A DNA stretch of 64,000 nucleotides. Source: an uncultured Pseudomonadales bacterium (GTDB lineage: Bacteria; Patescibacteriota; Microgenomatia; UBA1400; Chazhemtobacteraceae). The notes beneath the pieces are model-generated. The model ran no database searches and was not told the DNA's origin. It was given only the letters and a program-made list of their open reading frames with translations. The DNA is taken from contig CAZUBK010000002.1 of NCBI GenBank assembly GCA_964618725.1, positions 131,992 through 195,991 on the forward strand, read 5' to 3'. Shown one piece after another: positions 1 through 1,402 of this stretch. A program made the translations under genes and the position numbers. Position 1 is the first letter of the stretch. Every line of letters begins with the position of its first letter.

Positions 1-1402
1 TCAAGACAAATTTCAAATTACTGCTGGTAACAAGCGTGGTGCCCTTGGGAAGGAGTTTGGGGGCATCAGTCTTGTTGTAGACGGTTACTTCTCCGGTAGC
101 TTTCTCACCGACTAGAGCCTCACCAGTGGCTGGAGCAGTATCGGTTTTCTCGACTTGTTGAGTTTCTTTGGAGGCTCTTAAAGTGGGGAGAGAGGGGTGA
201 TCTTCACTGCCAAGGGCGACGGTGAGAGTCTTGTTAATGTCGTGGGGAGAAACCAAAACAGTGATGGTGGCATTACCGAGCAGATTGTAACCAACAAATA
301 TTCCACCAAAGCCCAACAGAATGAAGAAAATGGTGATGGGGATAACGGGGAGGTGACTAAAGGAAAGGGGGAGTGGTAGGATGCGGAAGTTGGGAAACGA
401 TATCTTGGGATGGGGAATGGGGAGAGCAGGGAGCTTAAACTTGGATTTGAGAGGATGAGAGGATGGAATGATCTCAGGATCTACAATTATTTCTGGGATT
501 TCGGAATCGGTTGAGTCTTCTTGAGTAAAGCCAAAATCATGAGGCGATAGAGAAGTAGACAGCTCTTCGGTGGTATCAACGGGTTCGACGGGAAGTTCTT
601 TTGGATGAGGAATACCTTCAATGGATTCATCTTCTGAGGCAGGTTCGGAGACTGGGGCTATTTCGATACCAAGGGACTTAGCGGCTTCAGTACCACCGGA
701 GAGGGCGATTGCTTCAATACTGAAATGGGGATCGGGGATTTCGACTTTAGGGAGATGTAGGAAGGCAAGATCATCTTGCCAAGGGTAAGAGACAAGTTGC
801 TGTTCGGCTTCATGGTCGGAGCCGTTGATGATAATAAAACGAGCTGGGAGTTGATCGAGTTCCATACGAGAGAGACCTTCGGCGACATCTTTGGCCAGAT
901 CATCGGAACGGGCGACTTCCTCACGGCTGATTAATTTACCGAGGCGAACGACATTAACACAAACTTTGGATAGACTGAGTTCGAGGATGATGGCAGTAGG
1001 GGGAATACCTTCTTTGTCACGAAGATGTTGAATGATGGCTTCGGTTAAAACAACAAAACCGATGGCTTTAAGTTCTAACTTTTGGAGGAGGTTCTTAAGA
1101 AGGGGGGAATAATCGGTGACAATCTTGTCGTTTTTAATCCAGGATTCGGGCAGGCCAAAGATGACTCGATCGGGTTCAAGACTGGAATCCTTGAGGGCGT
1201 CGGCAAGAGAGTTGTCAACGGCAGTAAGAAGAGAATCAGAGTCACTCCAGGGCAGCACTGTACCAAAAGAAAGAATCTGAGGCTGGCCGTCGATTACCTG
1301 CCAAATGGCGGCTTTAACAAGATCCTCTTGAATCTGGATGGCAATAAAAGTTTCTGGCGGGGGAGCTGAGGGTTTGCTTCCAAAAAGATTTCCAAGTTCC
1401 AT
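1..1402 (-). CDS. FtsA/PilM-like actin-fold domain fused to a TM helix and an extracytoplasmic domain (partial; 3' end beyond left window edge)
   Basis: I translated the minus strand by hand. An open frame of >460 codons runs from ATG at 1402-1400 to the window edge; the first in-frame ATG lies 21 nt after the alaS stop. The N-terminal region resembles the FtsA/PilM cytoplasmic domain. A TM segment follows (VIPITIFFILLGFGGIFVGY), then a T/S-rich external domain. It is absent from the ORF track because no stop codon falls inside the window. Confidence 0.55.
   Translation of the reverse strand, partial: MELGNLFGSKPSAPPPETFIAIQIQEDLVKAAIWQVIDGQPQILSFGTVLPWSDSDSLLTAVDNSLADALKDSSLEPDRVIFGLPESWIKNDKIVTDYSPLLKNLLQKLELKAIGFVVLTEAIIQHLRDKEGIPPTAIILELSLSKVCVNVVRLGKLISREEVARSDDLAKDVAEGLSRMELDQLPARFIIINGSDHEAEQQLVSYPWQDDLAFLHLPKVEIPDPHFSIEAIALSGGTEAAKSLGIEIAPVSEPASEDESIEGIPHPKELPVEPVDTTEELSTSLSPHDFGFTQEDSTDSEIPEIIVDPEIIPSSHPLKSKFKLPALPIPHPKISFPNFRILPLPLSFSHLPVIPITIFFILLGFGGIFVGYNLLGNATITVLVSPHDINKTLTVALGSEDHPSLPTLRASKETQQVEKTDTAPATGEALVGEKATGEVTVYNKTDAPKLLPKGTTLVTSSNLKFVL

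What the first reader, a model, noticed from the sequence alone, without database searches (positions are those of the whole stretch)
1..1402. Unlisted >460-codon gene: FtsA/PilM-like actin domain fused through a TM helix to an external domain
This ORF is missing from the track because its stop lies outside the window. The N-terminal half looks like a reduced FtsA/PilM ATPase fold (GLPESW..., ...ILELSLSKVCV..., DLAKDVAEGL). It is followed by a TM helix and a T/S-rich extracellular segment, which is not the canonical FtsA or PilM layout. PilN/PilO homologues sit 30 kb away without a PilM partner. This could therefore be a fused PilM-PilN-type pilus platform protein or a divisome variant typical of reduced genomes.
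Basis: partly seen in the sequence, partly recalled or inferred. Interest (0 to 1): 0.55.

Follow-up and report, generated by a model that had tools for sequence, protein, structure and literature searches.

The report
Actin-fold, baseplate-like membrane protein with sortase
The window's left edge holds the first 467 codons of a real 726-residue membrane protein, conserved in Microgenomates (CPR) bacteria, that joins a stripped-down actin-fold domain inside the cell to a phage-baseplate-like domain outside and is almost always co-encoded with a sortase; nobody has described this family.

Summary
A minus-strand frame starts at ATG 1402 and stays open for 467 codons to the window edge; the full protein is 726 aa.

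Residues 17-245 model confidently (pLDDT 90) as a minimal two-lobed actin/ASKHA fold. PilM and FtsA are the best PDB matches, but at about 10% identity. No FtsA, PilM, GspL or PilN profile matches. The 1C/2B subdomains and the glycine-rich phosphate loops are absent. One TM helix (353-375) follows an acidic, proline-rich linker.

The external part is not PilN-like. It has a Baseplate_J/gp47/gp6 wedge fold, supported by Foldseek on PDB and BFVD, and by Pfam in 17 of 24 family members.

The family has more than 1,300 clusters with one architecture; all taxonomically named members are Microgenomates. The gene sits between alaS and ruvX. An intact sortase follows it in 64 of 68 loci (median gap 1 bp).

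Best reading: a nucleotide-independent transmembrane scaffold that works with the sortase in cell-surface assembly. This function is inferred, not shown.

A lineage-conserved "orphan" pilN-pilO cluster carrying LPxxG proteins leaves open a more novel link. The domain combination appears undescribed.

The parts
1..1402 (-). Partial CDS of protein X: codons 1-467 of 726. The stop codon lies 780 nt beyond the left edge of the window.
   Evidence: The frame is open for 467 codons. It is 100% identical to P0001, 726 aa. The complete gene is on L001 at 1527-3707.
1355..1402 (-). Conserved N-terminal peptide, aa 1-16 (family consensus M-x-[LFI]-x-N-[LI]-F-x-x-K). It is predicted to be disordered. Possibly a short binding motif.
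   Evidence: Among 56 family members: M1 in 52, N5 in 46, F7 in 52, K10 in 41. pLDDT is below 50 for aa 1-11.
668..1354 (-). Cytoplasmic minimal ASKHA/actin-fold domain, aa 17-245. It has two uninterrupted RNase-H-like lobes, no 1B/1C/2B insertions, and degenerate nucleotide-binding motifs.
   Evidence: AF2 gives pLDDT 90.4 and pTM 0.85, with topology bbb-a-b-a-b-a repeated twice. Foldseek on PDB finds 644 hits at E<=1e-3, and all 50 listed are ASKHA proteins, led by PilM 5eou (7.7e-9) and FtsA 3wt0 (TM 0.63). The motif positions read E/Q23-I-H/Q25 and E141-I-Y143 instead of DxG and DxGGG. No Pfam or NCBIfam hit.
347..667 (-). Disordered linker, aa 246-352: acidic and proline-rich, of variable length, ending in a basic, proline-rich juxtamembrane stretch. 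It contains a conserved G291-F292 motif.
   Evidence: For aa 246-335, D+E is 21%, Pro 17% and majority-residue frequency 0.31. Across the family, the segment from the end of the ASKHA domain to the TM helix (aa 245-353) is 72-159 aa long. aa 320-352 have net charge +4. F292 is invariant and G291 is above 90%.
278..346 (-). Single transmembrane helix, aa 353-375 (VIPITIFFILLGFGGIFVGYNLL), in N-in/C-out orientation.
   Evidence: It has the highest Kyte-Doolittle 19-residue window, 2.41. AF2 places a helix at model residues 18-40, which equal aa 353-375. The flanking charges follow the positive-inside rule.
2..277 (-). First 92 residues (aa 376-467) of the 351-residue extracytoplasmic domain, which has the Baseplate_J/gp47/gp6 wedge fold. 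The Pfam barrel match (aa 432-533) begins at window base 109 and runs off the window.
   Evidence: Pfam PF04865 scores 23.3-24.6 bits against a cut-off of 21.1. 17 of 24 members hit Baseplate_J and 8 of 24 hit phrog_6, 'baseplate wedge subunit'. AF2 gives pLDDT 88.8. Foldseek on PDB: phi812 baseplate 2e-7, A-1(L), diffocin, Mu, Pa193, with 340-370 aligned columns. BFVD: 45 hits at E<=1e-3, and all but three of the named ones are baseplate J or wedge proteins.
1428..3182 (-). alaS (584 aa), the conserved upstream neighbour. Its stop lies 25 nt before the X start codon.
   Evidence: ORF listed. The alaS-X order is conserved in 63 of 68 loci.

Best explanation
Protein X is a bitopic membrane scaffold, N-terminus inside and C-terminus outside, that is specific to Microgenomates (CPR) bacteria.

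Shown:
- A short conserved N-terminal peptide.
- A 230-residue minimal actin/ASKHA-fold domain in the cytoplasm.
- A disordered acidic linker.
- One TM helix.
- A 350-residue external domain with the fold of contractile-tail baseplate wedge proteins (P2 gpJ, Mu gp47, T4 gp6).
- The gene forms a tight two-gene unit with a catalytically intact sortase.

Inferred:
- The actin-fold domain has lost the glycine-rich phosphate loops. It therefore probably acts as a nucleotide-independent protein-binding or oligomerisation module, as the cytoplasmic domain of GspL does, rather than as an ATPase.
- The wedge-like ectodomain self-associates on the outer face of the membrane, as wedge proteins do in baseplates.
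- Together the two domains form a trans-membrane platform that positions or regulates the co-translated sortase, or its substrates, during assembly of wall-anchored surface proteins.
For: Architecture:
- Open frame and full-length protein.
- ASKHA fold: AF2 pLDDT 90.4; Foldseek on PDB gives 644 hits at E<=1e-3, and all 50 listed are ASKHA proteins.
- TM helix and topology.
- Baseplate_J ectodomain by Pfam, PHROGs and two structure libraries.

Loss of canonical ATP motifs:
- All 56 aligned members have E/Q-I-H/Q/S and E-I-Y/F/N/H where DxG and DxGGG would be. The window's own protein has Gln at the first acidic position.

Family coherence:
- 1,464 representatives at 50% identity (1,318 at E<=1e-10). 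Nearly all of the top 150 have the domain starting within about 25 residues of the N-terminus in proteins of about 680-820 aa.
- The short entries are truncated gene calls.

Sortase coupling:
- A sortase follows X on the same strand in 64 of 68 loci, at X identities down to about 30%. The median gap is 1 bp and 54 of 64 gaps are <=10 bp or overlap.
- 63 of 64 sortases keep the His, Cys and Arg catalytic residues.
- The pair sits between alaS and ruvX-mltG. From my own knowledge, those genes are contiguous in many other bacteria, so the pair looks like an inserted module.
- The CPR sortase family is reported as near-ubiquitous specifically in Microgenomates (PMC6744442). All taxonomically named X-bearing genomes are also Microgenomates.
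- Likely sortase substrates (LPEAG, LPKTG or MPATG followed by a hydrophobic tail) are encoded in the same window and in relatives.
Against: - The functional link to the sortase rests only on gene order and co-distribution. No interaction or phenotype is known.
- The whole neighbourhood (RNase J, FtsK, a RodZ-like protein, alaS, X, sortase, ruvX, mltG, rpoBC) is syntenic in this lineage. Part of the adjacency could therefore be inherited gene order rather than selection for co-expression.
- The most divergent members (L061 Daviesbacteria, L062) keep alaS-X but have no sortase within 4 kb.
- Conserved Glu141, Lys30, Lys146, Asp168 and Asp172 could still support some form of nucleotide or metal binding.
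- Oligomerisation of the ectodomain is assumed by analogy. The TM-scores to baseplate proteins are low (about 0.21), although probability is 1.0 over 340-370 columns.
- X itself has no sorting signal, so it is not a sortase substrate (sequence).
Confidence: 0.45

Rival explanations
1. X is the PilM-equivalent (GspL-like) cytoplasmic platform of a PilN/PilO-based machine. Its actin-fold domain would bind the conserved N-terminal [IV]N[LF][LV]P peptide of the 'orphan' PilN. With PilO, it would organise either a type IV pilus or the export and anchoring of the LPxxG surface proteins encoded next to pilN-pilO.
For: - PilM:PilN(1-12), entry 5eou, is the single best PDB match.
- The overall layout of actin fold, TM helix and external domain mirrors GspL, which is effectively a PilM+PilN fusion (own knowledge).
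- The window's PilN keeps the PilM-binding-type motif (KINLVP), as do relatives (VNLLP, VNFVP). Yet none of four examined pilN-pilO clusters has a PilM.
- No PilM gene was found among the window ORFs of 150 aa or more.
- The pilN-pilO clusters carry probable sortase substrates, while X carries the sortase.
Against: - No PilM, GspL or PilN profile hit at E<=10. hhalign against PilM gives probability 0.1%.
- X lacks the 1C subdomain, which forms half of the PilN-binding groove in PilM (own knowledge of 2YCH and 5EOU).
- PPX, EutJ, sugar kinases and YeaZ score within about 10-fold of PilM, so the PilM preference is weak.
- X is never adjacent to pilN, pilO or pilus genes in 68 loci.
- A canonical PilM is reported in a complete Microgenomates genome and in many CPR genomes (PMC7143001, PMC6744442).
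- The rest of this genome could not be searched.
Confidence: 0.2
2. X is a divisome or elongasome component: an FtsA-like membrane tether that uses a TM helix instead of an amphipathic helix and couples cytoplasmic division proteins to extracellular wall remodelling.
For: - S. aureus, Vibrio and Thermotoga FtsA are among the best structural matches (TM up to 0.63).
- Neighbouring genes include FtsK, a RodZ-like HTH_25 protein and YceG/MltG.
Against: - No FtsA or SHS2_FTSA profile hit.
- Subdomain 1C and the FtsZ-binding 2B subdomain are absent.
- The neighbours belong to a long housekeeping syntenic block that also holds alaS, ruvX, RNase J and rpoBC, so adjacency to FtsK or MltG is uninformative.
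- The tight coupling is to the sortase, not to division genes.
Confidence: 0.08
3. X is a domesticated phage or tailocin part: a membrane-anchored baseplate protein that serves as a phage-receptor decoy or defence factor, or that anchors a contractile-injection-like structure.
For: The ectodomain is homologous to baseplate wedge proteins by Pfam, PHROGs and Foldseek.
Against: - No other phage or contractile-system genes (sheath, tube, or gp25-, gp7- or gp27-like) flank it in any locus.
- Its chromosomal position is fixed, and divergence down to about 30% identity indicates old vertical inheritance.
- No relatives were found on IMG/VR viral contigs.
- This reading does not explain the conserved cytoplasmic actin-fold domain.
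Confidence: 0.05
4. The N-domain is an active ASKHA enzyme (an ATPase, kinase or phosphatase) that uses Glu in place of Asp, so that X transduces energy or a signal across the membrane.
For: - Glu141 is present in 55 of 56 members. Lys30, Lys146, Ser166, Asp168, Asp172 and Glu175 are invariant or nearly so.
- PPX/GppA phosphatases and sugar kinases are among the good structural matches.
Against: - Neither phosphate loop has its glycines. His/Gln25 and Tyr143 occupy the turn positions.
- The first acidic residue is Gln in 9 of 56 members, including the window protein.
- There is no adenosine-pocket GG motif (N193-G194 instead).
Confidence: 0.1

Closest known systems
GspL/EpsL of type II secretion (and the split PilM + PilN pair of type IVa pili)
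   Same: Both are bitopic platform proteins: a cytoplasmic actin-like (ASKHA) domain that is not a conventional ATPase, one TM helix, and an extracytoplasmic domain. PilM is the best structural match for the N-domain.
   Different: - No sequence-profile similarity.
- X has only the bare two-lobe core, with no 1C/domain-II insertion.
- The ectodomain is about 350 aa with a baseplate-wedge fold, not an 80-100 aa ferredoxin-like PilN/GspL domain.
- The gene is linked to a sortase, not to secretion or pilus ATPases.
FtsA (bacterial actin-like divisome tether)
   Same: Both have the ASKHA fold and are attached to the membrane. FtsA structures align with TM 0.57-0.63.
   Different: - X has no 1C or 2B subdomains and no canonical ATP motifs.
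- X has a true TM helix plus a large ectodomain, where FtsA has a C-terminal amphipathic helix.
- No PF14450 or PF02491 hit.
Baseplate wedge proteins P2 gpJ / Mu gp47 / T4 gp6 (Pfam Baseplate_J; T6SS TssF is the cellular analogue)
   Same: The ectodomain matches Baseplate_J above Pfam's cut-off and matches PHROG 6. It aligns over about 340-370 columns with the wedge subunits of the phi812, A-1(L), Mu, Pa193 and diffocin baseplates.
   Different: - It is anchored in the cell membrane by a TM helix and fused to a cytoplasmic actin-fold domain.
- It is encoded in a housekeeping chromosomal block with no other tail or contractile-system genes.
- It has no relatives on viral contigs.
Minimal ASKHA proteins (YeaZ/TsaB, EutJ, BT_3980)
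   Same: These are of similar size (about 230-270 aa), lack the large insertion subdomains, and appear among the top structural hits.
   Different: They are soluble proteins with different partners. There is no sequence similarity, and X carries a family-specific invariant motif, F214-x-H-x-P-K-V.

Membership tests
FtsA (PF14450 FtsA, PF02491 SHS2_FTSA) | Significant match to the family HMMs | tested here: not met
   No Pfam family at E<=10 for the 467-aa window product. No FtsA or SHS2 hit at E<=1 in 8 full-length members. No relevant NCBIfam hit. The family profile against PDB sequences finds no FtsA.
FtsA (PF14450 FtsA, PF02491 SHS2_FTSA) | Two-lobed ASKHA/actin fold | tested here: met
   AF2 pLDDT 90.4. 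Foldseek matches FtsA 3wt0, 7q6i, 4a2a and 1e4f at E 4e-8 to 6e-7.
FtsA (PF14450 FtsA, PF02491 SHS2_FTSA) | 1C (SHS2) subdomain, and the 2B subdomain that binds the FtsZ C-terminal peptide | tested here: not met
   The domain is only about 230 aa. Both lobes are uninterrupted bbb-a-b-a-b-a units. Foldseek alignments to FtsA span 277-400 columns for 250 query residues, so in most of them more than 100 target residues are unmatched.
FtsA / PilM / ASKHA ATPases in general | Phosphate-1 DxG, phosphate-2 DxGGG/DxGxT, and adenosine GG motifs | tested here: not met
   The equivalent positions read E/Q23-I-H/Q/S25, E141-[ILV]-Y/F/N/H143 and N193-G194 across 56 members. Motif positions were assigned by secondary-structure register, not by a structural superposition.
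PilM (PF11104 PilM_2) | Significant match to the family HMM, or profile similarity to PilM | tested here: not met
   No hit. hhalign of the N-domain profile against P. aeruginosa PilM (sequence verified against 5eox) gives probability 0.1%.
PilM (PF11104 PilM_2) | Encoded with pilN, pilO and the pilus motor genes | tested here: not met
   In 68 loci the neighbours are alaS and sortase/ruvX/mltG. pilN-pilO lie about 31 kb away in the window.
PilM (PF11104 PilM_2) | Binds the N-terminal INLLP peptide of PilN in the 1A/1C groove | not testable with these tools
   No complex prediction was available. Subdomain 1C is absent, so canonical binding is unlikely. PilN in the window does keep the INLVP motif.
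PilN (PF05137) as a fused C-terminal part | PilN domain after the TM helix | tested here: not met
   No PF05137 hit in X, while the true PilN at 32962-33537 scores 26 bits. hhalign of the ectodomain profile against the window's PilN gives 0.1% and against the PilO-like protein 0.2%. The Foldseek hits with E<=1e-3 are phage or tailocin baseplate proteins, plus the GlxA beta-barrel.
GspL (T2SS protein L) | Architecture of cytoplasmic actin-like domain, one TM helix, and an extracytoplasmic domain | tested here: met
   Searches show this is the same overall architecture.
GspL (T2SS protein L) | Match to the GspL HMMs, and association with GspE/GspM | tested here: not met
   No Pfam hit. GspL/EpsL is not among the top 50 structural hits. 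No T2SS or T4P genes are nearby.
Baseplate_J (PF04865; gpJ/gp47/gp6 wedge proteins) | Match to the family HMM above the gathering threshold | tested here: met
   23.3 bits (full-length) and 24.6 bits (ectodomain) against a cut-off of 21.1. P0018 scores 29.9 bits. 17 of 24 members hit at E<=0.01, and 8 of 24 hit phrog_6. The match covers only the barrel, profile positions 20-110 of 255.
Baseplate_J (PF04865; gpJ/gp47/gp6 wedge proteins) | Whole-domain wedge fold | tested here: met
   Foldseek on PDB: 9euf_I 2e-7, 8kea, 8v3w, 9ki1 (Mu) and 9b45, with 340-370 columns and probability 1.0. BFVD: 45 hits at E<=1e-3. The global TM-score is only about 0.21, presumably because of inter-domain hinges.
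Baseplate_J (PF04865; gpJ/gp47/gp6 wedge proteins) | Part of a contractile tail, tailocin or T6SS gene set with gp25-, gp7-, hub- and sheath-like partners | tested here: not met
   The context is housekeeping genes only. No viral-contig relatives.

The most novel reading that the evidence does not exclude
X, its sortase, the lineage-conserved 'orphan' PilN-PilO pair and the LPxxG surface proteins encoded beside them together form a previously unrecognised Microgenomates surface-assembly machine. In it, a PilM-like cytoplasmic domain engages the PilN N-terminal peptide (or X's own similar N-terminal peptide). A ring of baseplate-wedge-like ectodomains would then organise sortase-mediated attachment, or polymerisation, of large surface proteins. 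This would be a hybrid of type-IV-filament platform parts, a phage baseplate module and Gram-positive sortase chemistry.
Probability: 0.13. Interest if true: 0.85.

Novelty: new variant of a known kind. Interest (0 to 1): 0.58.

Why it matters
CPR/Patescibacteria make up a large share of bacterial diversity. They live attached to other cells, and most of their lineage-specific membrane proteins have no known function.

This family is conserved in every named Microgenomates class sampled here and holds a fixed chromosomal position next to the lineage's sortase. It combines two modules never reported together: an actin-fold platform domain and a phage baseplate wedge domain exposed on the cell surface.

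- If it organises sortase-dependent surface assembly, it would be the first dedicated scaffold for a sortase outside Firmicutes and Actinobacteria. It would also be an example of a baseplate module recruited for cellular envelope architecture.
- If it instead partners the orphan PilN/PilO, it would change how pilus-platform proteins are recognised in CPR genomes.

In either case it is a well-defined, structurally tractable target.

Tried and rejected
- **Profile searches on the window product.** Pfam and NCBIfam gave nothing relevant, only a spurious 14-bit oxidoreductase hit.
- **PDB by sequence.** A single-sequence search found nothing and the family-profile search gave only spurious gp41 coiled-coil hits at E about 0.1.
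- **hhalign.** The N-domain profile against PilM and against the window's DnaK NBD gave no signal for either. Sequence therefore cannot rank ASKHA subfamilies. The ectodomain profile against the window's PilN and PilO-like proteins also gave nothing.
- **Split architecture.** I asked whether the 275-350 aa hits were stand-alone N-domain proteins. Rejected: they all end in the linker and are truncated gene calls.
- **Recent phage origin.** No relatives in IMG/VR.
- **X as a sortase substrate.** Rejected: the conserved C-terminus (…LP-x5-10, beta-strand, end) has no LPXTG followed by a hydrophobic and charged tail.
- **Sortase class.** Only the generic TIGR01076 model passes its cut-off. All class-specific models score far below theirs.
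- **Literature.** Searches for baseplate J with Patescibacteria or sortase, PF04865, actin-like with sortase and CPR, and PilM with Microgenomates found no description of such a family.
- **Not achieved.** I could not determine whether this genome has a canonical PilM or FtsA elsewhere.
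Full report
**1. Observation**

On the minus strand an ATG at 1402, 25 nt after the alaS stop at 1428, opens a frame that runs without a stop for 467 codons to the window edge. The ORF listing omits it only because it runs off the end. An identical 726-aa protein (P0001) is in public data, and the complete gene is on a 15.8-kb contig (L001 1527-3707).

**2. Family**

The protein has hundreds of full-length homologues of 680-820 aa, and every name a source gives them is 'hypothetical protein'.

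An exhaustive HMMER search with the N-terminal 250 residues finds 1,464 representatives at 50% identity, of which 1,318 are at E<=1e-10. Nearly all of the top 150 have the domain starting within about 25 residues of the N-terminus. The short entries stop inside the linker and are truncated gene calls.

The score distribution drops sharply after the family. There is no halo of PilM or FtsA hits, which would number in the thousands if they were detectable.

In GTDB genomes the named hosts are Collier-, Woese-, Beckwith-, Chisholm- and Daviesbacteria and 'Microgenomates group'.

**3. N-terminal domain (aa 17-245; window 668-1354)**

- *Sequence searches find nothing.* Pfam gives no family at E<=10 for the window product, and no actin-fold family at E<=1 for eight full-length members. 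NCBIfam, PDB sequence searches and hhalign against a verified P. aeruginosa PilM sequence are also negative.
- *Structure prediction is clear.* AF2 on a 20-sequence alignment gives pLDDT 90.4 and pTM 0.85, with two consecutive bbb-a-b-a-b-a units.
- *Foldseek on PDB supports an ASKHA fold.* It returns 644 hits at E<=1e-3, and all 50 listed are ASKHA proteins. PilM:PilN(1-12) 5eou is first (7.7e-9) and S. aureus FtsA has the best TM-score (0.63). PPX/GppA, BT_3980, EutJ, sugar kinases and YeaZ lie within about ten-fold, and identities are about 10%.

The fold claim is therefore supported, but assignment to the PilM/FtsA family is not. The lobes carry no 1B/1C/2B insertions.

By secondary-structure register, the phosphate-1 and phosphate-2 positions read E/Q23-I-H/Q25 and E141-I-Y143 rather than DxG and DxGGG. 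The window protein itself has Gln23. I infer a nucleotide-independent interaction module, with moderate confidence. Invariant K30, K146, S166, D168, D172 and E175 leave some doubt.

Family-specific features:
- An invariant F214-x-H-x-P-K-V loop.
- A conserved but disordered N-terminal peptide, M-x-[LFI]-x-N-[LI]-F-x-x-K.

**4. Linker and TM helix**

The linker proper (aa 246-335) is acidic (21% D+E), proline-rich (17%) and poorly conserved. The whole segment from the end of the ASKHA domain to the TM helix (aa 245-353) varies from 72 to 159 aa across the family. It ends in a basic juxtamembrane stretch with net charge +4.

aa 353-375 is the only strongly hydrophobic segment (KD19 = 2.41), and AF2 models it as a helix. 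This places the N-terminus in the cytoplasm and the C-terminus outside.

**5. External domain (aa 376-726; the window holds 376-467)**

S+T is 20-23% here against 16% overall.

- The full-length protein hits Pfam Baseplate_J at aa 432-533 with 23.3 bits, against a cut-off of 21.1.
- 17 of 24 family ectodomains hit Baseplate_J, and 8 of 24 hit PHROG 6, 'baseplate wedge subunit'.
- AF2 gives pLDDT 88.8.
- Foldseek on PDB returns baseplate wedge subunits of phi812, cyanophage A-1(L), diffocin, Mu and Pa193 over 340-370 columns at probability 1.0. The TM-score is about 0.21, consistent with hinges between subdomains.
- BFVD returns 45 hits at E<=1e-3, and all but three of the named ones are baseplate J or wedge proteins.
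- There is no similarity to the window's own PilN or PilO-like proteins.
- No relatives occur on IMG/VR contigs.

**6. Genomic context**

The order is RNase J, FtsK, a RodZ-like HTH_25 protein, two small ORFs, alaS, X, sortase, ruvX, (a small ORF), yceG/mltG, rpoB and rpoC. It is conserved at 30-40% X identity.

- A sortase follows X on the same strand in 64 of 68 loci. The median distance from the X stop to the first possible sortase start is 1 bp, and 54 of 64 gaps are <=10 bp or overlap.
- 63 of 64 sortases retain the His (xFGHS), Cys ([LV][IV]TC) and Arg residues.
- The sortase matches only the generic sortase model.
- Of the four loci with no sortase hit, two are truncated contigs. The other two (L061 Daviesbacteria and L062) are among the most divergent members. 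In L061 a 665-aa polytopic membrane protein follows X instead.
- From my own knowledge, alaS-ruvX-mltG are contiguous in many bacteria, so X and the sortase look like an inserted two-gene module.
[quoted passage not shown] X itself is not described there or in any other search.

**7. The PilN/PilO argument**

The window does encode a PilN (32962-33537; PF05137 at 26 bits) that starts …KINLVP. A PilO-like protein follows it.

In three relatives the same cluster recurs: murJ (divergent), rpsT, pilN, pilO, a small TM protein and large surface proteins. None has a PilM or any pilus motor genes.

The large proteins in these clusters end in LPEAG or LPKTG (and MPATG/MPSTE) followed by a hydrophobic tail, so they are probable sortase substrates.

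None of the window ORFs of 150 aa or more encodes PilM, FtsA, MreB or a pilus ATPase. This keeps alive the idea that X supplies the PilM-like partner.

Against that idea:
- X lacks the 1C half of the PilN-binding groove.
- X is never linked to pilN.
- A canonical PilM is reported in another complete Microgenomates genome (PMC7143001).
- The rest of this genome could not be inspected.

**8. Mechanism**

Shown:
- A bitopic protein with a cytoplasmic minimal ASKHA domain and an external baseplate-wedge domain.
- Operonic linkage with an intact sortase.
- Lineage-wide conservation.

Inferred:
- The ASKHA domain is a pseudo-ATPase interaction module (probability about 0.6).
- The ectodomain oligomerises like wedge proteins.
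- The protein scaffolds or regulates sortase-dependent surface assembly (about 0.45).

Rivals:

| Reading | Probability |
|---|---|
| PilM-equivalent partner of PilN/PilO | about 0.2 |
| Active ASKHA enzyme | about 0.1 |
| FtsA-like divisome tether | about 0.08 |
| Domesticated phage part, decoy or defence | about 0.05 |

**9. Comparison and novelty**

X works most like GspL or PilM+PilN in layout. It fails their membership tests: no HMM match, no 1C subdomain, no PilN domain and a different gene context.

Its ectodomain is a true, if distant, member of the Baseplate_J superfamily, but outside any contractile-system context.

I found no report of the combination of an actin fold, a TM helix and a baseplate wedge, tightly coupled to a sortase. 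I therefore rate it a new variant of a known kind (bitopic actin-fold platform proteins), with interest 0.58.

Noticed in passing
window 32590-40184 (+); also L069 7580-14386 and L070 7690-15574: A conserved cluster reads rpsT, pilN (N-terminal [IV]N[LF][LV]P motif), a pilO-like gene, a small TM protein of about 110-150 aa, and large surface proteins. It never includes PilM, pilus ATPases or prepilin-like N-termini. Two of the window's proteins end in sorting-signal-like tails: the 540-aa fn3/Big_13 protein (…STMPATG + hydrophobic + YYLKI) and the 498-aa acidic double-disulfide-repeat protein (…VQLPEAGIG + hydrophobic). Relatives have LPEAG and LPKTG. In this lineage PilN/PilO seem to travel with sortase substrates rather than with a pilus motor.
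   Followed up: partly
window 1355-1402 (-) = aa 1-16 of X; and aa 291-292 (window 527-532): X carries a conserved but disordered N-terminal peptide (M-x-[LFI]-x-N-[LI]-F-x-x-K) that loosely resembles the PilN INLLP peptide. It also has an invariant Phe (with Gly291 above 90%) in the middle of an otherwise unconserved linker. Both look like short linear binding motifs, and their partners are unknown.
   Followed up: partly
window 1428-3182 (-): The alanyl-tRNA synthetase is only 584 aa (612-617 aa in relatives), much shorter than the roughly 875-aa enzyme of model bacteria (own knowledge). It keeps the tRNA-synt_2c and tRNA_SAD domains in relatives, so the C-terminal region appears to be missing.
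   Followed up: no
window 4891-5529 (-): A RodZ-like protein: an HTH_25 domain (66 bits), a TM segment, and a C-terminal Glucodextran_B-like beta domain (27 bits). It lies directly downstream of FtsK (5556-7634) and is conserved at this position in all relatives examined.
   Followed up: no
L061 6127-8124 (+) (Daviesbacteria): In the most divergent X-bearing locus, the gene after X is a 665-aa polytopic membrane protein instead of the sortase. A putative SGNH/GDSL-like secreted protein follows it. This suggests the downstream partner of X has been swapped for another envelope enzyme.
   Followed up: no
window 45326-46402 (-), 50338-52278 (+), 30881-32536 (-), 27212-27883 (-): The window holds a full Gram-positive-type wall toolkit: a LytR-CpsA-Psr ligase, two adjacent FemAB-family peptidyltransferases, MurJ and a polysaccharide deacetylase. 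This fits a monoderm envelope in which a sortase would be functional.
   Followed up: no
window 52244-55333 (-) and 47394-49310 (+): A 1,029-aa UvrD-type helicase is fused to a PD-(D/E)XK/Cas4-like nuclease (AddA/AddB-like). A second UvrD-family helicase lies nearby.
   Followed up: no
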